A stretch of DNA of 30,900 nt from Cyanophora paradoxa CCMP329. Its lineage: Eukaryota > Plantae > Glaucophyta. The DNA is taken from the NCBI GenBank assembly GCA_004431415.1, contig QPMI01000070.1, forward strand, positions 1 through 30,900, in the 5' to 3' direction. A program made the translations under genes and the position numbers. Below, one piece after another: positions 10,885-30,900 of this stretch (the stretch's first letter is position 1; every line of letters starts with the position of its first letter). The notes under the pieces were generated by a model. It ran no database searches. It was not told the DNA's origin and saw only the letters and a program-made list of their open reading frames with translations.

Positions 10885-11167
10885 ACACATAGTAAAATGC
10901 GGAGTTTTAACCCTCGGCTTAATCTTAATTGATTTTGTTGATATATCTCGTATATTCTATTTCAATCAATCGATAATCTGTGTATATCTTATCGAATATT
11001 CAATTATTTCGATTATTTGTATTCTTTTCGATATTTTATCGTAAATTTCTCTTATTTTCCGATTAGTCTTACTGAGTTAATCGATAATCTGTATATATTT
11101 CCGAATAATATAACTGAATCTCAATTAGATCTTGCCTCTGGTTAAAACTCCGCATTTTACTATGTGT
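10885..11167. repeat. Perfect 28 bp inverted repeat (10885-10912 / 11140-11167)
   Basis: ACACATAGTAAAATGCGGAGTTTTAACC and its exact reverse complement GGTTAAAACTCCGCATTTTACTATGTGT. Confidence 0.96.
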
Positions 11168-11420
11168 GATTGGTCTAAAAGTTAATTGATTTAATCGATA
11201 TTATATTCATGTACTTTCTCGATTAAATTTAATTAAATTTAAATTCATTTAATCGGAAATATATCGCTTAACTCGATTAAGATCCATATTAGATTCATTT
11301 GTTTAATAAAACAAATAGATCTCTTATTGAATCCAATCGTAATTATACATGAAACTTATATGATTTATCATTGTTTTATTGAGTCTAAGGGGGACCCTTA
11401 GGAATTTAATGAATAATTGG

Positions 11421-11511
11421 GTGTCACAGGTGTCACAGGTCCATCCCATCGAAAGGGAAAATCACTCTTTATAGGGCTTGAGCTGGGATAAACCTGTGAC
11501 ACCTGTGACAC
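11421..11511. repeat. Iteron-like site 1: 20 bp perfect inverted repeat built of tandem 9-mers, 51 bp spacer
   Basis: GTGTCACAGGTGTCACAGGT (11421-11440) and ACCTGTGACACCTGTGACAC (11492-11511). Confidence 0.92.
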
Positions 11512-12234
11512 ATACCATATTCAGTAAGGACCTCTTATATTGTGAAAATCTCAGTGTTAGTTGGTGTAGTTGATTCAAAAAATGCATTTTATACTCTGAT
11601 TCATTGTTATTTCCTGTGAAATTTGAGTCAACTCAACCCACTTAGTCAACCCTTGCATTGAATTCGTAACAAAATCCATATACTATTACTACTTTTACGA
11701 TTAATATGAGTCAACCTTGAGTCCACTTTAATATAAATATTATATAATAGGGGGAATCAAGGGGAGATGCTTACTAAATGCAGTGTTAGATTGATGGGAT
11801 CATAGATGGGATCACAGTTATCGAAGCAATATAATATAGTTGAATATTCGATATCATAAGTTGATCGAAACGATAAGTATATGGTTATAAATCGCGATTT
11901 TTGAGTTATAATCGAATTTAATCGAATTAATTTTGAATTTCAAAACTCGCTTTAATCGTAATAGCGATCTATACACATTGAGATTCGTATATGTGATTGC
12001 AAGTTATTGTTATGTATGATATATGTGATTATATTCGACCGTCAGTGCATCGATTTGATAACTTGCTAGTGATCTATATTAAAAACTCACGTTTAATGGA
12101 TTTTAATCGAATTTATAATCAAAATTCAAAATCGGTTTCATCGCGATTTGGAGTTACAGTTAGTGAAATTCCGATATGGCTCATAAGCGCTGTGACCGCC
12201 TTGAAATGCTCGATTTTATGACGTTTAAGCGCAT

Positions 12235-12539
12235 CGATTTGATAAGTTGGTGTTGAGATATCGTAGCAAACGTTAATATTGATTTTCTAGACGGGTACAG
12301 CATTAATCTAGAAAAAACCGCGTTTTTTTTTACTTTTCAAGTTTCACGGCGAACGAAGTAAAGGTTCCCGAGCGGATTTGAACCGCGTAGTTTTGAGTCA
12401 GAAATCAAGCTCTCTATTCTCTGAGCCAAAAACGGCTTACCACCAAGTCGACTCCTGGCTAGTGTTTCACCAAGTCTACTATGGCAAGTGACTTTTGCAT
12501 CTTCAAACTGTTATATCTCATCACCAGATCATCAAAACG
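12235..12539. repeat. Imperfect 27 bp inverted repeat enclosing the tRNA-like sequence
   Basis: 12235-12261 versus the reverse complement of 12513-12539, 22/27 identical. Confidence 0.65.
12363..12436 (-). ncRNA. Degenerate tRNA-like sequence (tRNA-Gln(CTG)-like), possible Pol III unit
   Basis: Minus strand GCCGTTTTTGGCTCAGAGAATAGAGAGCTTGATTTCTGACTCAAAACTACGCGGTTCAAATCCGCTCGGGAACC. It has box A-like TGGCTCAG, a CTC/GAG D stem, a TTGA/TCAA stem around CTG, and a T arm GCGG-TTCAAAT-CCGC (box B). The acceptor stem is poor. A T6 run lies ~45 nt downstream. Confidence 0.45.
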
Positions 12540-12660
12540 CAACGTTCTGCATATCGCTGTGAAGCGCTTGATAAGATCTACAAGACTATGTGTATATCAT
12601 GTGCATATATGTATATCAGTCATACATATATTTGGAAAAAACGAGTTTTTGCCTAGCAAA

Positions 12661-14043
12661 CTAGCTAGTTTTGGTCCTTTCTCTTAGTGTTCTCTGAGGT
12701 TTAGGGCTGTATATGACTCCTTAGTAGTCTGAAAGTCATTATACCATCTCTGGCTATTAACCTCAGAAAGTTTCTGTGTCCCTGCTATAGTGAGCTTTTT
12801 GAGTTCCCTGTTAACTTTCCCAGCCTTCTCCTTTCTAGCCTCTATCAAAGGCTTATCTGGGACTTCATTAGCAGCTTCTATGCTTCTCTCCTTATAGCAG
12901 CATCAGCCCTGGCTTCCTCTTTAGCTTGCTCCAAGGCATCCACTGTAGGGGTTTCTAGATATTCAACTGCATTCACAGGCAACAGCTCATGGAAAGCAAA
13001 CCTGTTTTCTATGATCTCACCAGTGGACTCCTTAGCTTAAACTTAAAGCCTTCCCTACTATCAACAGTGTAAACCATCCTAGACCAATTGTTACCCTGTT
13101 TAGCAAAGGGGTTCTTCTCAACTTTCACTCTAACAAACATGCCAGGCTGCATGGTATCAAGGTAAGCTATTGATTTCTTGAATCTTTCATCTTCTAATCC
13201 CACTATATACCTATAATGCTCCTCTGTAGTTTCGCCTGGCTTCATCTTAGTAGCTGAGTGAACTGTATTATTGTAATTATACTCAATATCACCTAACACA
13301 TCAAAGAATCTAGCTGTGTTATTAGCTATGCAATAGTTTGTGATCAGTCTCTTAATCTGCTTGTTAAAGGCTTCAATTCGACCTTGGCTTCTATGGTCAG
13401 CAGTTCCACTCACTTGGTGTTCTATGAATTTACTAGATAAATACTCCTGGAATATTCGATTTTGGAATTCACTCCCAGCATCTGATTGAACTTTTACTAT
13501 GGGTCTTGCCACTCTCATTTCAAGCTGTTTAAATGCAGCTAATGTAGTGAGAGCTGATTTATCCCTTATAGGTATGATATACCCAGTTCTCAGTGTAGAT
13601 TCCATTGCAGTCATAAAGGTATCATAGCCATTGTTTTGTTTCTTATAAGCTGGGAAAAAGAGCAAATCAATCACATAGGTATCAAGGGGTTGCCTAATTG
13701 GGACCATGGGATCTCTCTTCCTAGATATAGCAGGTGCATTGATCTGAACAACTTCTTGTTTTTTATAGAACTCTTGCAACTGCTTATAGGATTCATCAGG
13801 TAACTCAGCCCTCATAGCTTGAAGCCCTTTGTAACCAGTTCTCACATCATAGAATCTCTTGGCAATCTTGCTGGTTTCTTTCACTGCAATAGCAACTGGG
13901 ATCTCTACTGGGACAAGCTCTTTCATCTCTGACTTTTTTACAATTCGAGATTCTCCCTTTTCCTCCTTGGGAACTGTGATAGGCAGTAGGTTACCTTGTA
14001 GTTGCTCAGTGGTTCTCCTAACTATTCTTCCAGTTGCTGGCAT
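12661..14043 (-). CDS. Retroviral-like (rve) DDE integrase, polinton type; C-terminus frameshifted
   Basis: ORF 13009..14043 has YVIDL / VQSDAGSEF / SQGRIEAFN (D-D-E) and YNNTVHSATKMKP. Translation resumes in another frame (KESTGEIIENRFAFHELLPV) and continues across further shifts to ~12661. The exact end is uncertain. Confidence 0.93.
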
Positions 14044-14046
14044 CTC

Positions 14047-17000
14047 TTAATTAAAAGGAACAGAATTAATACCATCTGGTAAGATGTATCTCTTTGCATC
14101 AAAGCAGTTTAGGGCAACCCTTCTACTCACAGTGTCTATTATTGTGTGATCTGCCCTTCTTTTCTGCTTTGCAGTCACAGTCTTGCTGATACCTGCAAAT
14201 AAACACTGTTTAAAATCATTAAATTGGAGTTCCTCAGTTGAAGTCCAGAGAGCTTACTCCTCTCAATCTCAGCAGTTCTGAAACTGTAAACTTTAGCTCT
14301 CAGACCCACATACTCCAATATAGCAGAGCCAGGCATTTCATTTTTGTATTTACCTGGGGTCATTCTGGAATCACCTCCAAGGTCTAATGCATAGGATATA
14401 TTCTCTATATCTTTTTGTAGGGTCTTAGATTCGATATATAGACAAAAGGAGTCAGTATCATGGAATAGTAACTTTGCTTTTGTCCATTGGGACCTTACAG
14501 TATCATAGAAGAACTTGTAGTTATGCAGTTTGGCTGCATCCAGAACATAAGCCCCAATAGCAACTGGCTTATCTAGCTTCACATGCTTTGTGTAAAACTC
14601 AAAGGCAACTGCTTTTTCGTTTATGGGACTTGTTGATTTCACCAATGGGGAGGCTGCATATTTCATAAACAGTTTCTCACTGTTTGCAATCTTAACCACA
14701 GATCTACCTCTGCAAGATTCAATGCATTTCCCATAGATTGAGTTATTCATGAGTTTATAGAAATCAGCCTCGAATTTATTCACTGCTTTCCTTCTCATCT
14801 CAGTATTCAGCTCAATGTAGGGTTTCATTACAGGAGCCACAGTAAATGATAGGACCCTGTGAACCTTCTTTAGTTTCACCCCTTTGTCCAACAGATACTG
14901 TAGAAGAGGCTCAGAAATCACATAGTTGGTCACAGAACCAAAGGTTGCAGTTAGCTTAGGGGTCTTATCAAGCTCTTCTCCTGAGAGATCTAATAGGCTC
15001 TTTTGATATTGTGATAATTCTGCATATTCTACTATTTTCTTGTTAATAATTAGGGGAAATCACTGTGGTCTAGATATAGCCTAATTGGGTAATCCAGATC
15101 AACTTCCAGGAAACTGGATCTGTTATCTTGTGGGTTGAATTCGGTCTCCCATCTAAAATCACCAACTGGGATTGGCTGACTCAAACAGTAGCCATACAAG
15201 TTGTTAGCATCAAACAGCATTATATGGGAGTTCTCACCATCAGCCTCAGCATACCTACAAGGCATTGTTGCAAAGCCACCCCTGATTCCCCTCTCAACAA
15301 ATTCGTATTGCTCTACATCACTTATAAGCTCTATTTTTGCCTTGGTGGTCCTAAGCATAGCATCCCAAGATAACCCAGGTGCAGATACATAATGAACTGG
15401 GTCCAATCCATATACTGAGTGTGAAAGCCTTCTGAAAGCCTGGAATTTGCTCATTAACTCATCTACATCAGCAGCCCCAAAGTCCATAAAATTACTTGCA
15501 TCAATGAACTTGTAAAGACCCCATTGCAATGAAAGGTATTGATCAAAGTTTTTCGAAAGGATTTCGATTCGCTTTTTATCACCCATGCCTGCTATTTTTC
15601 TGAAAATGAATGTCCCACAGTCATCCATTTGGTCAACAACCACTGCTACTTTTGTTTGCTTTGAGATTCTCCTATGGAGATTGCAGTTTCTGCATGCAGG
15701 TGCAATGTAATTACCTGTGTGGTGATCATGATCCCTGCATTTGAAGTTTTCCTTGGTGAACCTCTCACTGCAAAGGTAACAGTGTTTGGTAGCTCTGTAA
15801 ATAGCCTTTTGCTCATCTGTGAGTTCATTCATGGGAATATTGGTGAACAGGAAATCGATTAGCTCTCTTGCTTTGGACTCCAAGCATTCAAACAGACCTC
15901 CCATTGGATCCTGACCCTCAAATCGAAACTCCTGAACATCTGCCCCAGTGACTATTCTAATGTTGACTGCTGAGACTTCCCTCTTGGATTTCGATGCATC
16001 AATGGGATGCTTCTATGTTCAATCTTGCAGTAAACCACAACAGGAAGCCAGACAGTTTTCCTGAGGTTTTTCAGTCCAAACTCTATTGTGGTGTCAGGCT
16101 TAGGGGTGATTCCCTTTGAGAGTCTCCAATCAATGCATCTGTTTGAGTCCACATGAGCAGTGAGTTTAGCCTCAGACCTGAATCGAGATAAGCATGTATC
16201 ACAGTAGTGTAACTTTTGATCCTTGGTTTTATCAAGGGCAACTCTGAGAAGTCTTGAAAGGGACATGATAGTAATATAGTGACCATTCCCTTCATCATCA
16301 TGAATGAGCATTAGATTAATCTTTTGCTTTCTGCCTGGGTTGCTGGATTGATGTAGGGGATATATAACATCTCCATCCATTCCAAATATGTTTATGCTGA
16401 TGCCTGCATTTTGAGATTCGAATTTATCAATGATTTCAGCATCACAAGGAACAGGGAATGGGATATTGTCGAAATTGAGAGCCAAAGGATTGTATGTGGT
16501 TGGTGAGTATTTCCATTTGCGATATTGTGTAAGCTCACTTCTCTTGTGGGAATTTACATCTTTCCTATGGATCCATGCCAAAATGGCATTTTCAAAGCAA
16601 GAATCATCAATATTTCGAATATTCACTGTGGCTCTCTTGGCTGCAATTGATTCTGGTGTTTTAACATAGCAGCCACCAGTTGGGGCATAACTCATAATAG
16701 CAACTCTTAGCATTTCGATTCTCTCCAATCGATAGCTATCAACAACATTCATCTGTTCCTGACACATTTGGGCTGCTTTATTCAGCTCAGTTCGAATATT
16801 TCTCGATTTGGTTAATACAAAATAATCGCTGTAAATGTATTTCGATATCCAAACCTGTGGATTGCTGACTTTTACGAACTTGCAGATAAACGACAAGCGA
16901 ACTTTGATTGCCCTGAATTGATCCAGACTATCTCTTAAACGTTTTGGTAGAGAGGTTGCAATTCTATCTAAATATTCAATCACATCTACCACAACTTCCC

Positions 17001-17289
17001 TTCTGGCTCTGTATGTGAGCCAGCGATATAATTCATTCATGGCTGTTCCATCTTCTGCCTCTGGTTCTATTTGCCTCAGGCGATCGAGTTCATCAAGAGT
17101 CTCAACTTTGTCATAGAGGTTATTGGCTTTTCTGGTTAATTTTGCTAAAGTGGGTCTGCCCCTTGAAATAAATCCGATTTCCCGGTCATATTCAGCCTCT
17201 GTGATTTCATGGGCTGCATACAGTGTTCCCAGTAATCCCATAAGTTCCCATTTCTTCTCTCTAATGAGTCTGTTGCTAATTCGGGGCAT
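14047..17289 (-). CDS. polB: Protein-primed family B DNA polymerase (pPolB) with vOTU-like, C2H2-like and endonuclease VII-like domains; several frameshifts
   Basis: Three consecutive ORFs plus linkers. Motifs: YGLDPVHYVSAPGLSWDAML, GIRGG, FDANNLYG (A), KLMNNSIYGK (B), FHDTDS (C), LRAKVY, and the C-terminal ALNCFDAKRYILPDGINSVPF* ending at 14047. It carries a CYLC..RDHDHHTG..ACRNCN insertion and DDSCF...GHY. Confidence 0.94.
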
Positions 17290-17345
17290 AGTTCCTAACT
17301 TGTTCCTACTAAAAGGGGAGGTTTTAAATGGGGAATTCTGAACAC

Positions 17346-17395
17346 AAAATTTGATGAAAACTACTTAAAGAAATATCTTCTATATATATAAAAGG
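17346..17395 (+). promoter_or_regulatory. Conserved upstream motif copy 1 (AAAATTTGA..ACTTAAAG..TATATATA)
   Basis: 17357-17395 is 38/39 identical to 18682-18720 and ends 3 nt before the ATG at 17399. Confidence 0.8.
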
Positions 17396-17398
17396 ACA

Positions 17399-18214
17399 AT
17401 GGCAGAGAAGAAATCGTATTGCCTGGAAAAGCTCAAAGCGGCTTTAATGTTGCTTTGTGGATCTGATAACTTCAATGATTATGTTGCTCTTGGAAGTAAC
17501 AGGAAACCGCTCCCTCTTTGGGCAAAGCTTGCAAAATATGGATTAAGTGACTATGACCTGCCTCCAGAGTCTGAGCATTGCGCCTGTGATCATCCAATTA
17601 AAGAGCAATGCTATATTCTGCATGTTAATAAAAAGATTGTGGTCATTGTTGGGAATTGCTGCATTTTACGATTTATTCCGAAGGGTGCCAGAGGTCAAGA
17701 TATATGTGAAAGATGTGGAGATCGGCATAAAAACCGAAAGGATAATTTCTGTAATAAGTGCAGAATCGCTTTAAAGCAAGAAGAACTGGAAAGAAAAAGA
17801 GAACTTGAAAAACAAGAGGAAGCTCGAAAGAGGCAGCTTGAATTAGAAGAAAGAGAGCGAAGAGAGAGAGAATTAGAACAAGAAAGAGCAAGGAATAAAC
17901 ATGCAGTTAATCTTTTCCTGATTTGGTGCAACCAATTTATTCCGAAAATGGATAATCTTCGCAGAGATGATATAGAGAGGTTCAGAGAGGGCAGATCTGC
18001 ATTGATTGAAATGTATGCAGAACTCAGTACAACAAATACATTGGTTGCTGGGTTTCAGGTGCCTTATCTTAAAAAAGATATCGCAAAAGGATTAGATTGC
18101 AGATGGAATAAGGACAAGAAAACATGGGAGACCTTGGAAATCGAACCATTTGTAGCATTGCTAGGTAAGCATTTCAAACTTATGTATATTGAGCGATTTG
18201 GACAAAGAGGTTAG
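17399..18214 (+). CDS. Zinc-finger / coiled-coil protein with C-terminal DUF5710-like motif
   Basis: CACDHPIKEQCYI..VGNCCILRF and CERC..CNKC Cys clusters, an E/R/K coiled coil, and FQVPYLKKDIAKGLDCRWNKDKKTW, which resembles DUF5710. Preceded by the promoter motif. Confidence 0.75.
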   Translation: MAEKKSYCLEKLKAALMLLCGSDNFNDYVALGSNRKPLPLWAKLAKYGLSDYDLPPESEHCACDHPIKEQCYILHVNKKIVVIVGNCCILRFIPKGARGQDICERCGDRHKNRKDNFCNKCRIALKQEELERKRELEKQEEARKRQLELEERERRERELEQERARNKHAVNLFLIWCNQFIPKMDNLRRDDIERFREGRSALIEMYAELSTTNTLVAGFQVPYLKKDIAKGLDCRWNKDKKTWETLEIEPFVALLGKHFKLMYIERFGQRG

Positions 18215-18219
18215 AGAAC

Positions 18220-18252
18220 AAAAAATGATTTAAAGAATTCTCTATATATATT
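18220..18252 (+). promoter_or_regulatory. Conserved upstream motif copy 2
   Basis: AAAAAATGATTTAAAGAATTCTCTATATATATT upstream of the ATG at 18271. Confidence 0.7.
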
Positions 18253-18270
18253 AAGAGAGACAGAGGAAAA

Positions 18271-18525
18271 ATGCCACTCAGTGAAGCCCAGAAGAGAGCT
18301 ATGAAGAGATACCAGCAAACTGAAAAAGGTAAGGCTCAAATCAAAAAGTTTAACGAAAAAATAGCCACACAGCTTAGAGATCTATATCAAACCGATGATA
18401 CCTATAGAGCAATGAAAATAGCAAGTTCATGTCAGCGAAAGTATGCAGCCAATGCAGTCTGCTTTGTCAAGTATTTGTATGATGTCCCTTACTCAAATAG
18501 AGGGAGAAAATTGAAACATGTCTAA
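18271..18525 (+). CDS. Small basic hypothetical protein, possibly DNA-binding
   Basis: 84 aa K/R-rich ORF (SEAQKRAMKRYQQ..., RGRK near C-terminus) that fills the intergenic gap and has the promoter motif. Confidence 0.7.
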   Translation: MPLSEAQKRAMKRYQQTEKGKAQIKKFNEKIATQLRDLYQTDDTYRAMKIASSCQRKYAANAVCFVKYLYDVPYSNRGRKLKHV

Positions 18526-18661
18526 ATTATTTTTCCCAGCATATTACTAGGCTGGGGATATGCTGTTTATTCGCTGAAATACCCATTCATCCTTTTTGTA
18601 TCTAAACCACTCGATATATCATGTGGATAAATTTCGTAGGGATACTTTCTCGATTTCCAAC

Positions 18662-18720
18662 AAAAAATGATTGGGGGACCCAAAACTACTTAAAGAAAAA
18701 TCTTCTATATATATAAAAGG
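18662..18720 (+). promoter_or_regulatory. Conserved upstream motif copy 3
   Basis: AAAAAATGA..AAAACTACTTAAAGAAAAATCTTCTATATATATAAAAGG upstream of the ATG at 18738. Confidence 0.8.
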
Positions 18721-18737: not shown

Positions 18738-21065
18738 ATGAACGCCAAACAGACTAAATCGCTCAAATCGCTCGCTAACTGGCTCAGATCTGATGAGGAA
18801 CTGTCCAAAAACATGATTATCCCAGTGAAACCTGACAGCAAAGACCCTGTTTTCAAGCATAAGGGAGGTGCTTGGTCCTGGGAAAAGTATGAGGAAGCGC
18901 TGGCAACTAATCAGTATGTATCTTGGGGCATTCTGCTCTCAGACAACATGATGGTTATTGAATTTGATGATGAGGAGGACTTTGAGAAATTCCGAGATAT
19001 GTTTCCTGATGACTTTGATGCCAATCAGCCCATGGCAAAAACTAAAAAAGGCTATCATGTCTACTTCAAACGACCTGAGGAGTTCACTAAACTCAAAATT
19101 ACCGATAAGGCTCCAGGCTTTAAAGGCTTTGAAAAGGTTGACCTGAAAACAATCACTGGAACTGGAACTTCTGGATTAATTAATGTTTGTCCCAGTGTCA
19201 ACAAGACCTGGGTAATTGCTCCATGGGATGATACCTGTGATTTCAATGAGCCTACTGATGAGTTTAAAAAGTGGATTGCAGAGAACTATATCTATAAGAG
19301 TGAGTATACTGCTAGTGCTAGCTCAAATGATGAACTGGAAAAGAGTATTCTTAAAGAGCTGGTGGATATGGGCTTTATGCATCCCAATATAATCTCTAAA
19401 ACTGAACTTGGCTTTAGCTTTGATGCTGCTAATAAGGGACTCAATTGCCCATGCTGCAATGGTTCCCATGAATCGAATAACTGGTATGTTATGAAAGCCA
19501 AAGGAGAAGATAAAAAGTATATTGTGTCCAGCTACAGTGGCAATTGCAAAAAACGATTTATCTTCATTGGAATGCAATCTGATATCTTCAATCTCATTGA
19601 TAAATCCGCTGGCTCTGGAGGCGCTCATTATGATGTCAGTCTTGTGTGCAAAGAGGTCCTACAACACACTTGGAGATACTCCAAAAAGTCATGGTTCAAA
19701 CTCAATACTGATACTGGGATTTGGGAGCATGATGACACAAACCAAAAGATTTACCTAGACATTAGTTGCCTTGTTGTCCCTCAATACCTTGGCAGGGCTG
19801 TGCATTATAGTCAAAGAGCTTTGAAGGATGAAGAGAATAGAACAGCTTTCGAAGAGAAATCGAAAACATTAATTTCTATTGCCAAAAATCTTAAACAATC
19901 AGGATATCGCAAATCCCTTCTGACTGATCTGCTCCCTCTGCTAAATGATGATGAGTTTTACGAGAAGATTGATACAGTTCCATATGTAATTGGATTCGAT
20001 AATGGTGTATTTGATCTGACAACTATGACTTTCAGAAAGGGTAAACTGGAAGACATGGTGAGCAAGAGTGTGGGTTATGATTATACTGAGAATGTAGACC
20101 CCAAGAAAGTGGAGCATCTCAATCAGATTTATAGAGAGATTGTAGATGATCCAGCAGAGCGAAACTATCTTCTGGCATCTATTGCAATTGCTTTGAGTGG
20201 ATCAACAAAATCACAGAAGTTCTACATGTGGACTGGTGCTGGTGCTAATGGTAAATCACTTGTTCAGGAATACTGCAAACAGATATCTGGGGCTTATTAC
20301 AGCCCTCTCGAAATATCCTATTGGACCAAACCTAAGAAGAACTCATCAGATGCTACCCCTGAACTTGCCAAACTCCTGGGAAAGCGACTTGTATTCAGTA
20401 ATGAGGCTGAAGATGGTGATAAACTGCAAATCTCCAAAATTAAGGAGGTCACAGGTGGAAATGAAATGACTGTGAGAGCCTTGTTCAAAGATCCAGTTAT
20501 CCTTACTCCAATGTTTCAAGTCTACATTACAACCAATGACAATTTGACTATAAACAAACCAGACTTTGCAATTCAAAGAAGGCTTTCATACCAGAGATTT
20601 AACAATATTTTCAGAGAGAAGCCAGAAGCTGGTCAAAAGAAAGCTGACCCAACTCTGTTCACACTTCTACACAATGATGATGAGTATAAGATGGCTCACA
20701 TGAAGATATTACTGGATATGTGGAAGAACAAAGAGGTTGAAGAGATCTTAAGAAATCCCCCTCAATCGATTATTGAACAAGGGATAAACTTTATAGCTGA
20801 AAATGATAAGATTGGTGAATGGCTTAGGGATAATTTCGAAGTAACCCACAATGCAAACGACTTTGTTTCGAGTGATACCATTTACAAATCATACAGAAGT
20901 GTCGATGATAAAGTTGAATGTGTTTCTGTGATGAAGAGAGTAAGGGAAATCTTCAATGTGAAATCAGAGGTTAAAAGAATTCAGGGAACCAGAGCAAGGG
21001 GCTACATTGGACTTCGAAAGATAACAAGGGTTCAAGAAGACAATGGAGAGGATGTCGAATATTAA
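18738..21065 (+). CDS. Prim-Pol (AEP) + D5-like superfamily 3 primase-helicase
   Basis: Intact 775 aa ORF. N-terminal GILL..MVIEFDD..KTKKGYHVYF, then CPCC..H..C, D5_N-like IGFDNGVFDL, Walker A GAGANGKS, Walker B LVFSNE, motif C YITTN, AIQRRL, and a C-terminal winged-helix-like region. Confidence 0.95.
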   Translation: MNAKQTKSLKSLANWLRSDEELSKNMIIPVKPDSKDPVFKHKGGAWSWEKYEEALATNQYVSWGILLSDNMMVIEFDDEEDFEKFRDMFPDDFDANQPMAKTKKGYHVYFKRPEEFTKLKITDKAPGFKGFEKVDLKTITGTGTSGLINVCPSVNKTWVIAPWDDTCDFNEPTDEFKKWIAENYIYKSEYTASASSNDELEKSILKELVDMGFMHPNIISKTELGFSFDAANKGLNCPCCNGSHESNNWYVMKAKGEDKKYIVSSYSGNCKKRFIFIGMQSDIFNLIDKSAGSGGAHYDVSLVCKEVLQHTWRYSKKSWFKLNTDTGIWEHDDTNQKIYLDISCLVVPQYLGRAVHYSQRALKDEENRTAFEEKSKTLISIAKNLKQSGYRKSLLTDLLPLLNDDEFYEKIDTVPYVIGFDNGVFDLTTMTFRKGKLEDMVSKSVGYDYTENVDPKKVEHLNQIYREIVDDPAERNYLLASIAIALSGSTKSQKFYMWTGAGANGKSLVQEYCKQISGAYYSPLEISYWTKPKKNSSDATPELAKLLGKRLVFSNEAEDGDKLQISKIKEVTGGNEMTVRALFKDPVILTPMFQVYITTNDNLTINKPDFAIQRRLSYQRFNNIFREKPEAGQKKADPTLFTLLHNDDEYKMAHMKILLDMWKNKEVEEILRNPPQSIIEQGINFIAENDKIGEWLRDNFEVTHNANDFVSSDTIYKSYRSVDDKVECVSVMKRVREIFNVKSEVKRIQGTRARGYIGLRKITRVQEDNGEDVEY

Positions 21066-21124: not shown

Positions 21125-21216
21125 TGTTCACAGGTGTCACAGGTCCATCCCATCTAGGGGGCTATAAAAAGAAAAATGACCAGGGGACGATAAAAACCTG
21201 TGAACACCTGTGACAC
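21125..21216. repeat. Iteron-like site 2, same architecture and 51 bp spacer as site 1
   Basis: TGTTCACAGGTGTCACAGGT-CCATCCCATC...ACCTGTGAACACCTGTGACAC, ~60 bp after the primase-helicase stop. Confidence 0.9.
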
Positions 21217-21231
21217 CTATCGAAAAAGACC

Positions 21232-21284: not shown

Positions 21285-21506
21285 ATGGCAAAGGCTCTTG
21301 AAGAAATGACCATGATTGAGTTAGATAAATGCATTAAACATGGAGATATAGGGGCATATATCGAAATGTCACAGAGATTGATAGGTTACAATGTGTATGC
21401 AGCAAAATCAAAGAGAAATAGATCAGTAAACATTCACATAACTGTTTCAGTGTCTGAGAATGCAAACAAAAAACAACAAAAGCATATTTACAAAAGTTAT
21501 CTGTGA
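21285..21506 (+). CDS. Small hypothetical protein (73 aa)
   Basis: In-frame ATG (MAKALEEM...) of ORF 21210..21506, just after the promoter motif. Confidence 0.55.
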   Translation: MAKALEEMTMIELDKCIKHGDIGAYIEMSQRLIGYNVYAAKSKRNRSVNIHITVSVSENANKKQQKHIYKSYL

Positions 21507-21593: not shown

Positions 21594-21839
21594 TTATAGA
21601 CCTGGGGGTCCATTGCTACTTTCAGTTGGCAAATAATATTTAATCGGTCTTCCTCTGGGTCTCTGCTCTTCTTTTTGGGCTTTTCTGCGATAATAGGATG
21701 CCAGGGCTTGCTGCTTTTTATACTCTCTATATTCTGGGTCCTCTCTATATCGTTTCTGCTTTGCTAGAATGTGTCTAATAGCACCCTCAGTTAAAGGCTC
21801 ATCACTGGTAAACTCGATCAAACTAATTGTATCCTCCAT
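21594..21839 (-). CDS. Small basic protein with AT-hook-like motif (81 aa)
   Basis: MEDTISL...QKRYREDPEYREYKKQQALASYYRRK...RPRGRPIKY; uses an internal ATG of ORF 21594..22034. Confidence 0.65.
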   Translation of the reverse strand: MEDTISLIEFTSDEPLTEGAIRHILAKQKRYREDPEYREYKKQQALASYYRRKAQKEEQRPRGRPIKYYLPTESSNGPPGL

Positions 21840-22095
21840 TAATATTTGCTGAGAAAACGTTTTCGCCTGGCAAAGAACTTCTCCTTGGATACTCCTGTTG
21901 CTCATATGTATACTCTGTGGGGTCTGCTGGCATTGACTCCACAGAAACTGTTGATCTCCTTCTCTCTCTTGCTTCTGAGGCATTATCCTCATTATCTGAC
22001 ATCTCAAACTCCACTTTTGTCTCACAACATCCACTGTGGCAATTGCTCACCACATGCAGACTGAACATCTCGAAGAACTTTCGTATTATGTCCAT
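21823..22095 (-). CDS. Small hypothetical protein with SNCHSGCC motif (90 aa)
   Basis: Internal ATG of ORF 21823..22155 tiles between neighbouring genes; amphipathic N-terminus followed by a Cys cluster. Confidence 0.55.
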   Translation of the reverse strand: MDIIRKFFEMFSLHVVSNCHSGCCETKVEFEMSDNEDNASEARERRRSTVSVESMPADPTEYTYEQQEYPRRSSLPGENVFSANINGGYN

Positions 22096-22117
22096 ATCTC
22101 TAATAAAACAGAGATAA

Positions 22118-22852
22118 TTAAAGCCAAACTCGTCTTTTATATACTGTTGGGGCAACTCCCTTTTCTACTTCAGCTTTGGTGGCACCAGGTTCAATGGTTC
22201 CCTTTTGGGTTTTTGTTTTCATTTCATCTACTGCCTGCTCATCGATTTGGTTCTCTTTCTTAGCAATAAACTGTTTATCTGGGACACCAGTAATGCCCAT
22301 TTTATAAACTTCCTTTCGAAGCATCTCCTTTAACTTGGCTCTCTCTTTCTTCTCAGTAACATACTGCTCCAAGGCACTTGATTTGGCTTCCAGATCTTTG
22401 AGTTTAGCAGTCATCTCATCCCATTGAGCCTTGGGAATTCGATGAATATTTTGAGTGGGAGCAGTCTTGTATGTGACTTCACCAGCCATAGACTGAATTA
22501 CCTTGTCTGATTCCTTACTAAGACCCTCACCTTTGCGAGCCAGTGAAAGATCTTGCAAGCCTAAACCTTTGTCATCAGCAGCCCCAATAATTCGCCTGGC
22601 ACCCTCAGCAACAGACTTCATCTTTGCTGTCTCAGGGGAAATGTTCAGTTGGTCAGCAGTTGAACTTTGTGGGGCTTTGTCATCGACTGATTCCTCATAG
22701 GCAGCATTTAGGGGGTCTTCTTGGGGTTGTGAGGGTTTGATTTCGTTCATACCATTGAATTTCATTGGTTCAGTGTTAATAGATCCACTGTTTCCACCAC
22801 CTGAATAGCCAACAGCCCCAGCTGGGATCCCTATTTTTCGTTTGGGAGGCAT
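22118..22852 (-). CDS. Hypothetical charged protein, 244 aa (possible core protein)
   Basis: Long ORF in the structural gene block with an MPPKRK N-terminus and a coiled-coil-like segment. No family recognised. Confidence 0.75.
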   Translation of the reverse strand: MPPKRKIGIPAGAVGYSGGGNSGSINTEPMKFNGMNEIKPSQPQEDPLNAAYEESVDDKAPQSSTADQLNISPETAKMKSVAEGARRIIGAADDKGLGLQDLSLARKGEGLSKESDKVIQSMAGEVTYKTAPTQNIHRIPKAQWDEMTAKLKDLEAKSSALEQYVTEKKERAKLKEMLRKEVYKMGITGVPDKQFIAKKENQIDEQAVDEMKTKTQKGTIEPGATKAEVEKGVAPTVYKRRVWL

Positions 22853-22966: not shown

Positions 22967-23662
22967 TCAGTTCATCTTCTTTCTTTTTGGCTTTCTGTGG
23001 AAGCGAGGAAATGGGAAGTCTTTGACAAGCTCAGCTTTATCTACAAAGTATTTAACTGAGTAGCCAGCAGAGGACCAAACGATATACTGATAGGAGTGGA
23101 CATATTCTTCAAACATTTTGTAAAAGTCCTCCTTGTTTCGCATTATATTGTATTCTTCCTCTATGGCTTCAAGTTCTTTGCGATTAGCAGCACTCAGGAA
23201 AACAGCATAATCAGAATTAACTCGAATAGTGGAAGAGACTTTTCTGAGTTTCTGTGTAATGCAGATAATGGATATTTTCGAGTGTCTGCCCCTACTGTAC
23301 AGAGATGACACCACCTTGTCTCTGGTTAAATCAATTATCTCATTATCAATTAAATCATCTAAAACAACACACATGTGGTTCACAGGTTCACCTTTTTCGA
23401 TTTTCTCCTGCCTTTCATCCAAAAGCTTTGAAATGTAACCGGCATCCCATTTACCAAGTTCTACTGTTGCAACCTCTCTCCAGAAATGATTGAAGCTGGT
23501 CCCACTCACAACTAGGACAACATCAATAACTTTGGCATCATGTAATTGCTTTAACCAATACTTTACACATTCGCTTTTTCCCGTACAACTTTTGCCTATA
23601 AAAATGGCTCTGAAAACACCTTTAATCATTTCAGAGACATTAAACTCTTCTAAATCTTGCAT
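22967..23662 (-). CDS. A32/FtsK-HerA family genome packaging ATPase
   Basis: Walker A GKSCTGKS, Walker B CVVLDD, SRGRHSKISIICITQ and IRVNSDY. The C-terminus may extend to ~22915 through a frameshift. Confidence 0.94.
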   Translation of the reverse strand: MQDLEEFNVSEMIKGVFRAIFIGKSCTGKSECVKYWLKQLHDAKVIDVVLVVSGTSFNHFWREVATVELGKWDAGYISKLLDERQEKIEKGEPVNHMCVVLDDLIDNEIIDLTRDKVVSSLYSRGRHSKISIICITQKLRKVSSTIRVNSDYAVFLSAANRKELEAIEEEYNIMRNKEDFYKMFEEYVHSYQYIVWSSAGYSVKYFVDKAELVKDFPFPRFHRKPKRKKMN

Positions 23663-23721
23663 TGTTGTAGATCTTCCTAAATAAAGACAGATAAAAATAA
23701 TGCAGGGAGACTGAATATGGT

Positions 23722-25089: not shown

Positions 25090-25142
25090 TATATTCTCTT
25101 TTATTATACTGCAACATAAAAAATCTACCAATGATCCTTAAT

Positions 25143-26152
25143 TTATGCGAAGTTTGTAATAACTGGATAGGAAGGGTGAAGCTGTGACATTCGCATCTTA
25201 AAGTATTCATAAACTGGGTCCCCAGCTGGCTCATCACCATAGCGAATTTCAAAGGTAAGATGAACAGGTTGACCCTCAAAATCAATTGGTTCATTAATAG
25301 CATTTACAATATCAACCGAGAAAGTGGATAATCCAACCTTTTTGTTATAGTATTTATAAAGTGGATGAGCCTCTGTTGAATTGTAAACAACATGCTCACC
25401 ATAGTCTTTATCAGGGACCACTATTTTGTGAAAGTAACCAGTCAGAAGACCATCCCCACATTGCACCAGATCACCCAGCTCCTTTACTCTCACAAACAAA
25501 ACACTGTCCCTGGTCTTCTCAGGCTCAAAAGAAGATATAATGCCATTCACTCGACCACCAGTAAAGATTCCATCAGTGAGAGCATCATAGACCTGTGATT
25601 GGATTGGGGAGTTACCATATCTTCCAGGATCAAGACCCAGCAGTCTAGCTGAACTCAACAGCTTTTGGATTGTTTGTTGGCTTGGGTTCACAGCTACTGA
25701 GAAAGCCAAGTAAAATGGTACTGCTGAGTGGAATATAATTCGTTTCAGTGATTCATCCATTTGCAGCGAATGGATGGTTGGGGATTTCTGCCTTCGAATT
25801 TAGAGTTAATTACATTCACCAGTTGCTGGTGGCTTTGGATGGGGGTGTTTCGACTTATAATGAATTGTTTCCATTGTTCATAGTCAGCAGCTGGGCGAAC
25901 TGTTGGAATTCCTGAGCTTCCAGCTCCAGGAGTTTGTTCAGAATAATAAATGCTAAATGCATTGTCAACTGTCACATCTCCTGCTTTGGTTTCACCACTC
26001 ACCATAGGGATACTGTTATAAAATTCGGCTGAGACCAGTCTCACAGCCCTCACATTCTCATAACTACTGGGGAGTCTAGCCACAAAGCTTGATGTGGGAC
26101 CATCACCAGAGATTGTATTAAATGAGCTAACCTCGATGTAATCCACAGGCAT
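25143..26152 (-). CDS. Minor capsid (penton)-like protein 1; one frameshift near 25750-25780
   Basis: N-terminal SSFVARLPSSYENVRAVRLVSAEFYNS and C-terminal LSTFSVDIVNAINEPIDFEGQPVHLTFEI follow the single jelly-roll penton pattern. Two overlapping ORFs. Confidence 0.8.
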
Positions 26153-26181
26153 TCTTCTTTTATCTATATTTATATATTAAA

Positions 26182-27111
26182 ATGAATCGACTTGTTAATA
26201 TTGATAGCAGGGATAGAAGCCAAGGACAAAATGAAAACTCTTACAGGGTCACTCTCACAACTCCAGTAGAGAGACAAGGGAATGTAGGTTCTCTATGCAG
26301 AGATTCCAAACAGTATCTATAACAGTGTGGGAACTGATCATCTAACAGTTCAGTTTAATTACCAAGATGGTTCATACAATGAAATCATCACACAGAAAGT
26401 GTATCCCCTTCCCAGTGGCTACATTAACCAGGGTCATTTTGGGGTAACACACCCTTATAATTATGGGCTGAACTATTCAAGCTTCCAAACCATTGCAGGC
26501 AAAACAGTAGCTTTTGAGTTCAAGATATTCTATAACCCAACTACCTATAAAGTGGAGTTTTACAGTAACCATGAGTTTCGTTTTATTGCAAGCAACCAGA
26601 GAATAGGGAAGCTTTTGGGTGTGAGTTCTACTGAATACACCAATGGGTATTATAGCACTCCTCCTGTTGGTGGATCACCCTATCGACCTGAGAACCTGTT
26701 AAAGTATGATGGCAAACCTATTACACCTGATCACCCAGCATGGGGAACCACCTTTTCGGGACCCAGACTCTCATCTAAGCCCTTGCAATATTATTTTGAC
26801 AGCAGGAAGATGTCTGATATGAATGCTGAGCAGTATCTGTACATGCATATTAAAGAGCTGTCCCCCTTTGCCAGCAGACACAATATAATCCGAAATCGCA
26901 ACCACATAACCAGGGGGCAATCCTTAGACTGCAATTGAGTAAAGATATAGGCGGCTATGTTTACCATAGTGGTGAGCATGCCGAATTCATTCAGATAAAT
27001 GACAGAAACCTGGTGATAAGGGAACTCACTGTGGAGTTTAAAGATTACTTTGGTGAACTGATTGATATGAATGGAATCGACAATTCTTTTCAGTTGGAGT
27101 TTATCGAATAA
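26182..27111 (+). CDS. Minor capsid (penton)-like protein 2; frameshifts and one in-frame TAG
   Basis: MNRLVNIDSRDRS..SYRVTLTTPV, then VLYAEIPNSIYN, GKLLG, QYLYMHIKEL, then LTVEFKDYFGELIDMNGIDNSFQLEFIE* in shifted frames. Confidence 0.82.
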
Positions 27112-28656
27112 AGGCACCTGTAAAGTCCACTCTCATTGTGGGAGCATTCACATACACAAGGGGATAAATGCGAATATACTTGATTCTGAGAGAAAAACCT
27201 ATGTAAAAAGCATCCTTGATGCTGAGAGGAAATCCACTCAATAAAGCAACATCACCTGAGTTGTGAGCATTGTTAATGTTCTCACAGACATATATTTTGT
27301 TCTGCCCATCTGATCGAATAAAAGACCAGTTGATCCCATCAGTGGATGTTGCCACATTGAAAGTCTTAATAAAAGCATTGGTGTCCCCTGAACCATAGGC
27401 AATAACAGAGGAGAGTTCGAAAGTATATGGGAAAGCAACTTGAAGGTATTCAGTGGGAGTTTCCCATATCTGTTCAGGAGCATAGGCTCCAGCTTCCCAG
27501 CCAAATGCTGAAGGTCTAGCCATGAAAGGCTCTTTACCTGTCACAGAGGATGAGGCAGTAAAGGCATCATCTGCAAGCTGATACCAATTAGCATCCAAAG
27601 GAGGTGATGTAGTGAGAGTGGATGATATGTAAGCCTTTGAAGGGTTCTTTAATTCATAGTTTGCTACTAGAATGCTGCAAAGCTTATTAATCATATCATT
27701 GTTTGCTGCAATGTATGTTTCAGTGAATGCAAGCATGTCTGGGATTTTAGAAGTGTCATCCAGGGAGCTTACTATATGATTTGGAAGTGGGACTGATAGC
27801 CTATAGTATCTCCATAATCCTGATCATAGTTGTAGGGTAACAACTCCTCCATCTTATCAAGGGCAGAAAGCTCACTTGCAGCCATGAGCATGTTAATCAA
27901 TGGGCTTCCATCTGTTGAGGCAATCCATGAGAGAATGCCCCAGCTGTTGACAGTCTCATAAGCATAACCCACATAATCAGACTCTAAATGTGGGTCCACC
28001 TCTCCACAAGATATACTTATTACTATAATATCATCATCATCACTGTAAATTTTCTTTGCATGGCTGTAACCACACACACTGGGATTATTGTTTCCAGAAA
28101 TGGCACCATCAATGAGACAGACAAATACCCCCTGATTGAAATCAACAATGCTTACAGGAGAGAAATATGTAGGAGCAGCAGAAGTAGCCCTAGCAGCAAT
28201 CTTACAAGGCATAAAGTTGTAGTTGTTGTCATTTGTGATAAATATTGGTTTCATATTCTGAGTATCAAAGGATGTAATCACAATGTCCTTTAGGGAATCC
28301 TGTATTAGTGATTCACCAGTAACTGAATTGATTGCAGTTTCCAAGGGTCCCACATCATACTTTGTGTTAAATAGGGCATTTTCGATGATATTTCGAGGAT
28401 TTGCGAAAATCAAGGGCAGTTGAGTTAGGTAAATATTGTGTAAATCGTTTGCTGTCAGTTTAGGTTCACCTGGTTTATCAGGATGCCTGATATTCAAACC
28501 TATTGCAATGATCCCACCAGTGGAAGTTCCACTCACAAGATCCACAAGATCGATTATTCTCCTTCCAGTTCGATTTTCGATTTCTTTGAGCAGCCTGGTT
28601 ATGATAATGCCCCTTGCACCCCCGCCAGAAAGACTTAAAACGATCTTCTGAGGCAT
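27101..28656 (-). CDS. Patatin-like phospholipase fused to an F5/8 type C (discoidin) domain; one frameshift near 27810
   Basis: LSGGGARG, GTSTG, ARATSAAPTYF and IDGA. The second frame reads RYYRLSVPL..LDDTS..TYIAANNDMINKLCSIL (patatin C-terminus), then FTASSS..W..EYLQV..FIKTFNVATSTDGINW..KYIRIYP..TMRVDFTG. Confidence 0.88.
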
Positions 28657-28699
28657 CTTTTACTTATCAGGAATTTTATAAATCCATATAGTAAAAGCC

Positions 28700-30900
28700 A
28701 TGAGCTTCAATTACCCACCCAATCTAGAAACCATTCAAGATGATAATGCAAGCAGCACCAAGCATGTGAACTTTGATAATATTAAAGTAAAGGGTTCAGT
28801 TTCGATTGACCACAGTTCCGATAATTCATCCAAGACTCAATCAAGGGAGCATGCTTTATCTGTGAATCAACCGATCCAGATAAGGAGGAAGTCAGTGTAG
28901 CTTTTAGCTTGGGTAATGTGAAAGCAAACCAAGTGGCAGAGATCAAAGCAACAAGAAGGAGACCTAGGAAACTCAAAACCAGTGGCACTCATCCAGATAT
29001 ACCTTCAGGTTTGATAGTGGTCGATTGATTTTCAATGTTCAAGATGAGCAGGGCAAACAGAACACAGGTTTGCGAATTTACAATGAGGGCAGCACTGCAA
29101 AAAGCTGAGGTCCCCCAAGTATTGCAAGTGGGTCCATTGCCAACACAAATCAGGTCTCCTACACAAATGATGTCTATCCCAAGGATATAACATATGACTT
29201 TGCGAGGAATGAGCCTTTTGGGTTCTTTACTCCAAAAGATGTCCATCAAAAAAAGCCATCAATTACAATCAACAGTAGCCCAGTCAGCCAGTAGCAATCC
29301 ATTTACATCCTGATCTTGTTGAAATGGATAGGCACCTTTTGCCTTTGTATAGCAATGTGAAAGACCTTGGAATTCGAACCAGGCAATGGCGAAATATCCA
29401 TGGCAGCAATGTGTATGCAAATGGTGAGAAGCTTGTAAGTGAGAAGACCATAAGAGAGATCTTTGAGTATTATGGACCTGTCCCAGTTCCTTCCTCTTCC
29501 ATGGGATCCACCGGATTTAACACCGAAAAAGCAACCAGGCAGAGAGTACACAGCAGATGAGACAGTTCCTTTTGGGCAACACATTGTTAGTTGGGAGCAA
29601 GTTCGCAATAAACCTATAATTGAACCAAGAAAGCAAATAGATGAGCAGTATTTACCTCCTGAAGTCGATATATTAGAGCTTGATGAATATCAATTCGTTC
29701 CAGATGAGGAAGAGTATTTACCAGATGGTTTTGACCCACAAGAATATGAATATGATCAGTTTGACCCCAATGAGGAGGAGATACTACCAGATGGCTTAGA
29801 TCCACAAGAGTTTGAGTATGAGCAGAACTATGAACCTGATGAGGAGTATTTGCCAGATGGGCATGATCCACCAGCTGTTGATTATGAGCAACCTTATGAA
29901 CCCCATGAGGAATTATTACCAGATGGATTTCGACCTGAGATCTGGGAGTTCTTTCCTGATTATGAACAAATTAATAATAAACCTGCAAAGTATCCCCCAG
30001 AGGATCACAATCATGATTGGGATGAGATCTTAGGCAAACCTCAAAAGTATCCACCAGAGGATCACAGGCATGATTGGGGAGAAATTGATGGAATACCAGA
30101 AGAATTTCCACCAATCAAACATGAACACACTTGGGATGAGATTAATGACCAACCAGAATTCGCAAAAGTGGAGCCTCTTGAACTGGGGGTTTCTCTTTAT
30201 CAGACTTGTAATGTCCCTGAAAGAATCTTTTTGAATGAACACTATGTACATGTGAATGGGACACTTGCAAATTCAGCTATGAGAGGACCACTTCATATTA
30301 GGACATTACCAGGCTCTTATAATCCACCACCTGAACCAGGAGCAACCATACCAAATATCTTTGTGTCAAGCTACATGGAGGCTGACATTCCCACAGATAC
30401 ATTCAGAGTCCCAACAGACCCAGCAACCTACCAAAATTTCAACTCTGCTATACAGGTTCATGTGCAGATGTAAGCAGTTTAGATGGCTCAAGACCAATGA
30501 TAGTTTTCAGTCGAGATAAATATTCCTACATTCCCATAGTGGGAACTGCAAATGATAACTATGGGAGGGCAGAGCTTGCATGGACAAAACGAATTATGGT
30601 GGGGTTCTTGAAGCCAATCAAGGAATGGCTGCAAAAAACATAACAATGAGAGCATTTCGAGAGTGGTCACAGAGGATTACCTTACTGCAGTAATCCTTGT
30701 TAATTTTGTAACCCTTGCTATGCTTGATCAATTTATTACAGAAGCTGAACTTGCAGCAGGAACTATCCAAATATCTCCCTCTTGTGGTGGGACAATCACA
30801 GGAAACCTCACAGTTAATAGTAATATTTACAGTAGTAGCAATATAGAGACCAGCAATTTGAAAGTAAATGGAATCCTCACAATTGGCTCTTGCAATTTCA
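28700..30900 (+). CDS. Long fibre/spike-like protein, multiply frameshifted, truncated by window end
   Basis: Consecutive fragments: HLLPLYSNVKDLGIRTRQWRNI, acidic PDEEEYLPDGFDPQEYEY repeats, KP.KYPPEDHxHDWxEIxGxP repeats, and GGTITGNLTVNSNI near the end. Joining them into one gene is inferred. Confidence 0.65.

What the first reader, a model, noticed from the sequence alone, without database searches (positions are those of the whole stretch)
10885..30900. Integrated Polinton-like virus with an unusual mosaic: rve integrase, pPolB and Prim-Pol/D5 helicase with an NCLDV-like capsid module
Seen: a compact AT-rich element in GC-rich host DNA carrying all of these genes. Established: classic polintons pair rve integrase with pPolB and a maturation protease, while many PLVs use a primase-helicase. 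Here both replication strategies coexist, together with two pentons, a lipase fusion and a fibre. No adenain/Ulp1-like protease is visible in the 20 kb seen. Inference: this may be a little-described lineage of virion-forming endogenous viruses.
Basis: partly seen in the sequence, partly recalled or inferred. Interest (0 to 1): 0.85.

Follow-up and report, generated by a model that had tools for sequence, protein, structure and literature searches.

The report
Algal polinton-like virus losing polymerase proofreading
This is one copy of a many-copy virus family integrated in what is likely a glaucophyte alga's genome; the family is already catalogued, but its DNA polymerase has lost the key residues of its proofreading part and likely works together with a separate primase-helicase, as a published rule for these viruses predicts.

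Summary
The element is real. From 10885 GC falls from 0.58 to 0.39 and the window carries an rve integrase, pPolB, PrimPol-D5, A32 ATPase, a double-jelly-roll MCP, a patatin-discoidin lipase and a fibre. Two pentons rest on recalled motifs only. It is not an undescribed family. Its MCP is 58% identical to a Cyanophora paradoxa MCP listed in Bellas 2023, and a 2025 table of 156 glaucophyte elements already counts rve 85, pPolB 49, D5 40, lipase 89, protease 0. pPolB beside a primase-helicase is known (mavirus-type EMALEs, multi-replicase polisuviruses). What I did not find in print: this group-1-Polinton-type pPolB keeps its protease, EndoVII insert and polymerase motifs but has selectively lost the exonuclease (12 of 63 invariant residues kept against 127 of 182; 96-residue deletion), while PrimPol-D5 shows purifying selection. 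That fits the published rule that exonuclease loss goes with helicase gain, so the two replicases likely form one machine. Most frameshifts are likely assembly errors. The MCP is unplaced, with a weak sequence link to NCLDV-type capsids. The right end, target duplication and junction-spanning reads remain unchecked.

The parts
10879..10884 (+). Last six host bases before the element; candidate 5-6 bp target-site duplication, unverified
   Evidence: Sequence; the flank is a GC-rich host repeat with paralogues near 4200-4700 and 6500-7400. The right end lies outside the window.
10885..11167 (.). Left terminus: 283-nt stem-loop with a near-perfect terminal stem of about 30 bp, starting with a short AC repeat; likely the end of a terminal inverted repeat
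   Evidence: Inverted repeat I5; DNA fold -46.3 kcal/mol, z -9.6, 0 of 200 shuffles; a contig of run X16 starts exactly at 10885 (table 8)
11419..11511 (.). Palindrome of two plus two TGTCACAGG repeats, copy 1; candidate helicase-bound origin (inferred)
   Evidence: I7, I3; 3 matches, 0 in 100 shuffles
12687..14043 (-). rve (DDE) integrase; ORF 13009-14043, a C-terminal tail seems to continue in other frames
   Evidence: Pfam rve, PHROG transposase, IS481-like; 27-31% identical to the integrases that follow pPolB in L002-L005; frames
14050..17289 (-). Protein-primed family B polymerase in four frames: N-terminal region, vOTU-like protease with Cys and His, zinc finger, eroded exonuclease with retained EndoVII insert, intact motifs A, B, C
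   Evidence: one-base length differences in short-read contigs at all three frame changes (table 4). Domain names follow PMC11161782 and my reading of the alignment.
17399..18214 (+). ORF271: Cys-rich N-terminus, coiled coil, weak DUF5710; preceded by a TCTATATATA promoter-like motif
   Evidence: a DUF5710 gene also lies next to pPolB in L005
18271..18525 (+). ORF84, small basic protein, same promoter-like motif
18738..21065 (+). PrimPol - zinc finger - D5/SF3 helicase, 775 aa, unbroken, same promoter-like motif
   Evidence: 22 of 30 codons with listed copy differences are synonymous, 11 of 12 in the helicase half
21126..21217 (.). Second copy of the TGTCACAGG palindrome, 60 nt after the helicase stop; with copy 1 it brackets the integration-replication arm
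21285..21506 (+). ORF73, unknown
21594..22852 (-). ORF244 and a frameshifted small basic gene (ORF90/ORF132); possible core or DNA-binding proteins (inferred)
   Evidence: no family hits
22967..23662 (-). A32-type packaging ATPase; the C-terminus shifts frame in an A-run compared with its 87% relative P0002
23722..25089 (-). Double-jelly-roll major capsid protein, 455 aa, unbroken
   Evidence: 58% to C. paradoxa P0001; model pLDDT 66, Foldseek E 3e-19 and VIA Z 30.3 (rmsd 3.6, 349 aligned) to PBCV-1 capsid
25143..26152 (-). Putative penton A, split in two frames
   Evidence: Penton-like end motifs by recall; tools gave no support
26182..27111 (+). Putative penton B, split in several frames, head to head with penton A
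   Evidence: Motifs by recall; length difference in contigs at 26286
27101..28656 (-). Patatin phospholipase likely fused to an F5/8 (discoidin) domain
   Evidence: Pfam 5e-21 and 3e-7; length difference in contigs at 27811, between the two frames; fusion described for glaucophyte PLVs
28700..30900 (+). Fibre-like gene with short repeats, in several frames, running off the window
   Evidence: PHROG tail and fibre hits E 5e-7 to 0.05; tandem repeats; length differences at 28868, 29099, 29278

Best explanation
This is one integrated copy of a many-copy polinton-like virus family, likely of a Cyanophora-type glaucophyte alga, whose protein-primed polymerase has lost its proofreading exonuclease motifs and likely copies the genome together with the neighbouring PrimPol-D5 helicase. 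Shown: gene content, the double-jelly-roll model, the domain-specific erosion of the exonuclease, many diverged copies in public runs, mostly synonymous differences in the helicase. Inferred from known families: the integrase inserts a linear genome by its ends; the vOTU domain frees a terminal protein that primes at the end; the SF3 helicase loads at the TGTCACAGG palindromes and unwinds ahead of the polymerase, with PrimPol repriming or starting internally; ATPase, MCP and pentons package the DNA, and fibre and lipase serve entry. Whether it needs a giant-virus helper was not tested.
For: Exonuclease: 12 of 63 residues invariant in four relatives are kept, against 127 of 182 in vOTU, EndoVII insert and polymerase (Fisher p 2e-12); the ExoI Asp, ExoII Asn and ExoIII Tyr are gone and 96 residues are deleted near 15481. 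This is not an error of the window alone: an X15 contig spans 15215-15551 with no difference, and X15 and X16 contigs cover ExoI with one other letter each (table 8). PMC11161782 states that exonuclease loss goes with helicase gain, SF3 in mavirus and SF1 in PLVs. The helicase gene is open and 22 of 30 varied codons are synonymous against 20% expected. The three plus-strand genes share a promoter-like motif found nowhere else in the window. Contig depth at D5 (two variants summed, 4935 in X7) is of the same order as at the pPolB N-terminus (5248-6791). 14 of 24 listed runs hold about 70% of the sampled words of 9500-19000. Family and host.
Against: Cooperation of the two enzymes is inferred only. 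The exonuclease loss was seen in this copy and in three low-depth contigs (depth 3-6); the tables for the deep runs are cut (920 differences and 70 indels not shown), so it may not be fixed in the family. No listed contig bridges pPolB and ORF271, and loose ends at 17326 and 22111 show copies with other neighbours. D5 depth is 0.34-0.54 of that at 22016, and in the published table only 40 of 156 elements carry D5_N, 34 an SF1 helicase and 49 pPolB, without saying which co-occur. One strongly supported length difference, at 24829, lies inside the MCP frame that is open here, so not every listed indel matches a break. The synonymous count uses only the best-supported listed sites (31), and the PrimPol-zinc part has 6 of 9 varied codons non-synonymous. 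None of the four full-length pPolB relatives showed a D5 gene in the stretch fetched. No genome is held, so the host is inferred.
Confidence: 0.62

Rival explanations
1. A composite of separately mobile modules: a transpoviron-like rve-pPolB unit and an AEP-SF3 unit, bracketed by the two palindromes, joined to a capsid arm. The two replicases are alternatives and the exonuclease loss has nothing to do with the helicase.
For: The palindromes at 11419 and 21126 bracket exactly the rve-pPolB-PrimPol arm. Barth et al. describe repeats bracketing replication genes, with a C. paradoxa contig made of two transpoviron-like units and an AEP unit. The plus-strand genes have their own promoter motif. Other copies have other neighbours at 17326 and 22111. 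pPolB followed by rve is a fixed pair in L002-L005.
Against: Base composition and GC3 are alike across modules. D5 depth scales to tens of copies in two variants, which suggests a stable subfamily. The rival does not explain why only the exonuclease eroded.
Confidence: 0.22
2. Replacement in progress: PrimPol-D5 is now the replicase and pPolB is kept only for terminal priming or is decaying.
For: pPolB is broken in this window while PrimPol-D5 is whole; the exonuclease is eroded; AEP-SF3 alone replicates many PLVs.
Against: Polymerase motifs A, B, C and the vOTU dyad are kept at 68-70% of invariant sites; contigs differ in length at all three frame changes; all four listed pPolB differences tested are synonymous.
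Confidence: 0.1
3. Chimeric assembly: reads from different copies of a repeat family were merged, so no single molecule has this gene set or this junction.
For: The family is many-copy, and such false consensus contigs are documented. No listed contig spans the 10884/10885 junction or the whole element. The flank is itself a repeat.
Against: Listed contigs overlap in a chain over 17380-18497 and 20796-21562, linking ORF271 to ORF84 and the helicase end, the palindrome and ORF73. Gene order and the terminal structure are coherent, and a contig ends exactly at 10885.
Confidence: 0.06

Closest known systems
Endogenous viruses of Cyanophora paradoxa (PMC10120064 Tables S2, S4; PMC12220804 Table S6)
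   Same: MCP 58% identical to P0001, which Table S2 lists with an HHpred iridovirus-MCP hit of 98.5%; a second listed 465-aa MCP looks closer still by eye. Family inventory of rve, pPolB, D5/Prim-Pol, lipase, no maturation protease, patatin-discoidin fusion.
   Different: In the passages and tables I saw, the family has no name or class, co-occurrence of pPolB and PrimPol-D5 per element is not given, and the exonuclease loss, end structure and palindromes are not mentioned.
Mavirus and low-GC EMALEs (Virophaviricetes)
   Same: rve, pPolB without a working exonuclease, separate SF3 primase/helicase gene.
   Different: MCP model is far closer to PBCV-1 (Z 30.3) than to mavirus (17.8) or Sputnik (18.7); no maturation protease seen; the pPolB is of the long group-1-Polinton type with an EndoVII insert and a partly retained exonuclease, so the loss is likely independent.
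Group 1 Maverick-Polintons and environmental relatives L002-L005
   Same: pPolB architecture and the pPolB-then-rve order; 24-40% identity by piece.
   Different: All four relatives keep the three exonuclease motifs and showed no D5 in the fetched DNA; their ORFs gave no match to this MCP.
Multi-replicase polisuviruses (bioRxiv 10.64898/2026.10.13.758929)
   Same: pPolB-DDE pair plus an AEP-SF3 gene, with repeats bracketing the replication genes; one example is from a C. paradoxa contig.
   Different: That paper reads them as replicase turnover or tandem elements; the text I read does not discuss exonuclease state. Figures were not visible.
Nucleocytoviricota-related PLVs (Zoravirus, Zephyrvirus, VC218; bioRxiv 10.64898/2026.06.19.733378) and Mriyaviruses
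   Same: Small genome, NCLDV-like MCP, rve and lipase in some groups; weak link of this MCP to P0009, which groups with Capsid_N/Capsid_NCLDV clusters.
   Different: No HUH or VLTF3 hit by Pfam in the 20 kb seen; no Mriya48 profile was on hand; the family's ATPases match PLV profiles (107) rather than NCLDV ones (1); the paper's text does not mention glaucophytes.

Membership tests
Polinton-like viruses (broad sense) | Double-jelly-roll MCP | tested here: met
Polinton-like viruses (broad sense) | A32-type packaging ATPase | tested here: met
   Pfam Pox_A32 2.3e-12
Polinton-like viruses (broad sense) | Single-jelly-roll minor capsid protein | tested here: inconclusive
   Recalled motifs in two broken genes; no profile hit, fold failed
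Polinton-like viruses (broad sense) | 15-45 kb element with terminal inverted repeats and target-site duplication | not testable with these tools
   20 kb and the left end are seen; no genome is held
Polintoviricetes (Maverick-Polintons) | pPolB plus rve integrase | tested here: met
Polintoviricetes (Maverick-Polintons) | Ulp1/adenain maturation protease | tested here: inconclusive
   No Pfam hit in the 20 kb seen; right arm unseen; 0 of 156 glaucophyte elements in nine protease columns
Polintoviricetes (Maverick-Polintons) | MCP in the Maverick-Polinton clades | tested here: inconclusive
   The profile search of 1.84 billion representatives gave 7 hits, none named as Polinton; the published tables place C. 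paradoxa MCPs outside the named groups. No tree was built.
Virophaviricetes (mavirus-like) | Virophage-type MCP | tested here: not met
   Mavirus Z 17.8 (rmsd 4.6, 347 aligned) and Sputnik Z 18.7 (4.5, 353) rank well below PBCV-1 Z 30.3 (3.6, 349); MCP-VIR 0 of 156
Virophaviricetes (mavirus-like) | Exonuclease-less pPolB with separate SF3 helicase and rve (working principle) | tested here: met
Virophaviricetes (mavirus-like) | Dependence on a giant virus | not testable with these tools
   Needs culture work
Aquintoviricetes (Gezel/TsV-type PLVs) | MCP in the PgVV, TsV, Dino or related clusters | tested here: inconclusive
   No such relative among 7 hits; Table S4 counts fall under unnamed iterative clusters; no reference profiles on hand
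Mriyaviricetes | HUH endonuclease, VLTF2/3, Mriya48 | tested here: inconclusive
   No Pfam hit in the 20 kb seen; no specific profiles
Mriyaviricetes | No integrase gene | tested here: not met
   rve present; absence in Mriyaviruses stated

The most novel reading that the evidence does not exclude
A glaucophyte-specific, unclassified lineage on the Nucleocytoviricota side of the capsid tree that took a group-1-Polinton pPolB-integrase pair and is caught midway through a third, independent swap of proofreading exonuclease for a helicase: an exonuclease-dead protein-primed polymerase with a retained EndoVII nuclease works with a PrimPol-SF3 helicase at palindromic origins, a hybrid of end-primed and origin-primed replication, in some fifty copies of a culturable alga.
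Probability: 0.3. Interest if true: 0.68.

Novelty: new variant of a known kind. Interest (0 to 1): 0.45.

Why it matters
The link between exonuclease loss and helicase gain in these viruses rests on two end states (mavirus, and the pPolB-SF1 fusions). A many-copy family with a half-eroded exonuclease and, by the published table, several alternative helicases would let one test that link inside a single genome, and with purified enzymes. The capsid is also one of the lineages that current PLV frameworks do not place, with a weak tie to NCLDV-type capsids. The element as such, and its gene list, are already in published catalogues, so the surprise is moderate.

Tried and rejected
No genome is held, so extension to the right end and copy counting failed. 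IMG/VR scans with the MCP, ATPase, ATPase alignment, helicase half, terminal 28-mer and palindrome 26-mer found nothing; the whole PrimPol-D5 found one 22% phage-like locus; the metagenome scan found one 26% ATPase. PDB sequence searches with MCP, ATPase and pPolB pieces gave no significant hit; phages gave none for pPolB; no full-length relative of the pPolB N-terminal piece among 3543 candidates. The penton fold failed and was not searched. No Rfam or tRNA hit. I first read the summed depth bins as 'the PrimPol-D5 cassette is in a quarter of copies'; per-place depths put it near the pPolB level and about half of the capsid arm, so I dropped that. No RNA holder is listed; X15 and X16 are only guessed to be RNA, so nothing is claimed on expression. 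P0006 (E 1.5e-6, repetitive, 1206 aa) was left out of the MCP alignment as a likely chance hit. No tree was built because no reference sets of PLV, virophage or NCLDV genes were on hand. No complex was predicted. The Atlas did not answer for the window's MCP, P0001 or P0005.
Full report
Observation. The window splits at 10885: GC 0.579 before and 0.394 after, with CpG falling from about 1.1 of expectation to 0.1-0.5 in the coding part. The flank is a GC-rich repeat with two paralogues in the window, without Rfam or tRNA hits. The element starts with a 283-nt stem-loop (z -9.6, 0 of 200 shuffles), and a contig of run X16 starts exactly at 10885. No listed contig spans the junction itself, and the right end is outside the window with no genome held.

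Genes. Profiles identify rve, pPolB, an EndoVII insert, Prim-Pol and D5, Pox_A32, patatin and F5/8, and tail-fibre repeats. The 455-aa ORF has no Pfam hit, but its model (pLDDT 66, 7 sequences) is a double jelly roll: Foldseek E 3e-19 at 12% identity, VIA Z 30.3 to PBCV-1, 27.2 faustovirus, 18.7 Sputnik, 17.8 mavirus. Two head-to-head genes look like pentons by end motifs that I recall; no tool confirmed them. No maturation protease was found in the 20 kb.

Breaks. pPolB, the ATPase tail, both penton candidates, the lipase and the fibre change frame in the window. Short-read contigs differ by one base at all three pPolB frame changes (X2 depth with the difference: 14587 of 19009, 12066 of 12066, 15878 of 27530), and at breaks in penton B, the lipase and the fibre (12 of 82 rows shown). 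One listed difference (24829) falls in the open MCP frame and is unexplained. PMC10120064 reports such false frameshifts in multi-copy elements. So most breaks are likely assembly errors or private to this copy.

Copies and host. 14 of 24 listed runs, all labelled organism A, hold 0.69-0.71 of the sampled words. Thousands of short contigs with varied identity lie on the element. If a rare joint (21620 to 22111) marks single-copy depth, D5 stands at 49-57 copies in four runs and position 22016 at 92-109 in three; the tool warns that depth is no copy number, so this is rough. The only hit for the MCP among 7991 scored candidates is P0001 of Cyanophora paradoxa, 58%. The host is therefore likely this alga or a relative; this is inference.

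What is already known. PMC10120064 (passages; supplement rows) counts 366 MCP hits in C. paradoxa, 272 and 94 in two unnamed clusters, and lists P0001 with an iridovirus-MCP match; it notes that most Polinton and PLV MCP models resemble NCLDV capsids. PMC12220804 (passages, sections 9 and 11, Table S6) gives for 156 glaucophyte elements: A32 139, rve 85, pPolB 49, D5_N 40, Prim-Pol 8, SF1 helicase 34, lipase 89, protease 0, MCP-POL 2, PLV-type ATPase 107 against NCLDV-type 1, and describes the patatin-discoidin fusion. PMC8547959 (passages) gives rve, pPolB and primase/helicase for low-GC EMALEs. bioRxiv 10.64898/2026.10.13.758929 (parts 1-4 of 5, no figures) describes multi-replicase genomes and repeats that bracket replication genes, one on a QPMI01 contig, which is C. 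paradoxa. bioRxiv 10.64898/2026.06.19.733378 (parts 1-3 of 5 and passages) defines NCLDV-related PLV groups, notes two pentons in some Trimcap B genomes and does not mention glaucophytes. PMC8502044, PMC12721341 and PMC13215967 were seen as passages.

Five IMG/VR loci carry related pPolBs; four are full length (1229-1316 aa), each followed by rve as here; the broken fifth (L006) was left out. Aligned to them, the window's pieces keep 17 of 25 invariant residues in the vOTU region with its Cys and His, 11 of 14 in the EndoVII insert, 39 of 57 and 60 of 86 in the polymerase, but only 2 of 10 and 10 of 53 in the two exonuclease halves (p 2e-12), with loss of the ExoI Asp, ExoII Asn and ExoIII Tyr and a 96-residue deletion (motif names are recalled). 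Contigs of X15 and X16 carry the same state. PMC11161782 (passages) states that exonuclease loss is accompanied by helicase gain, SF3 as a separate gene in mavirus and SF1 fused in PLVs. Six searches showed no description of such a polymerase in a glaucophyte element.

The helicase. PrimPol-D5 is open for 775 aa, related to phage P4-type primases and ASFV C962R. Of 30 codons with listed copy differences 22 are synonymous (expected 20%; 11 of 12 in the helicase half, 3 of 9 in residues 75-242). The first acidic residue of the primase motif differs from the usual one in this window, while contigs of X2 and X10 show the usual residue (place 18962). ORF271, ORF84 and PrimPol-D5 share a TCTATATATA motif found only there. 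A palindrome of two plus two TGTCACAGG repeats lies near the left end and again just after the helicase; paired inverted repeats of this kind are how SF3 helicases such as SV40 T antigen find origins (recalled), so an origin role is a hypothesis.

Capsid placement. The profile search of 1.84 billion representatives gave 7 hits. The weakest, P0009 (E 8e-4; hhalign 96%, 238 columns), groups in the Atlas with Capsid_N/Capsid_NCLDV clusters at 0.98 and TM 0.84. It was found with the same profile, so these are not independent. This leans towards the NCLDV-related side, while the published ATPase counts lean to PLV. The lineage stays unplaced.

Verdict. A real, many-copy endogenous polinton-like virus of a catalogued but unnamed glaucophyte family. 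It works like mavirus in replication (inferred) and is not a virophage by capsid. New variant of a known kind; interest 0.45.

Noticed in passing
window 12089 to 26930 and 12252 to 14228: Contigs of runs X15 and X16 join these places, skipping 14.8 kb (all replication and capsid genes) or the integrase: internally deleted, likely non-autonomous derivatives, at depth 44-69 against 2-6 for most of the element in those runs.
   Followed up: no
window 11000-12300 against 13000-30900: CpG is strongly depleted in the coding part (0.08-0.5 of expectation) but not in the terminal non-coding region (1.2) or the host flank (about 1.1). Methylation-driven loss or selection is possible.
   Followed up: no
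window about 15630-15800: The EndoVII (His-Me finger) insert is conserved (11 of 14 invariant residues) although the exonuclease around it has decayed, which suggests a function of its own, perhaps on the terminal stem-loop.
   Followed up: partly
window 4100-4700, 6470-7370, 10070-10880: Three copies of a GC-rich host repeat, 66-96% alike, with a 14-nt internal tandem repeat; the virus sits in one of them. No Rfam hit.
   Followed up: partly
window 19714-20051: PrimPol-D5 exists as two variants about 10% apart at similar depth in five runs (X2, X10, X1, X7, X13), pointing to two subfamilies.
   Followed up: partly
L003 3630-4505 (minus): A TET/JBP-type dioxygenase gene in a pPolB-rve element from IMG/VR (Pfam 2.6e-7).
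   Followed up: no
P0005, P0007, P0008, P0009: Distant MCP relatives on ENA and JGI contigs up to 11.9 kb and 42.8 kb show that the capsid lineage exists outside this host; their context could not be fetched.
   Followed up: partly
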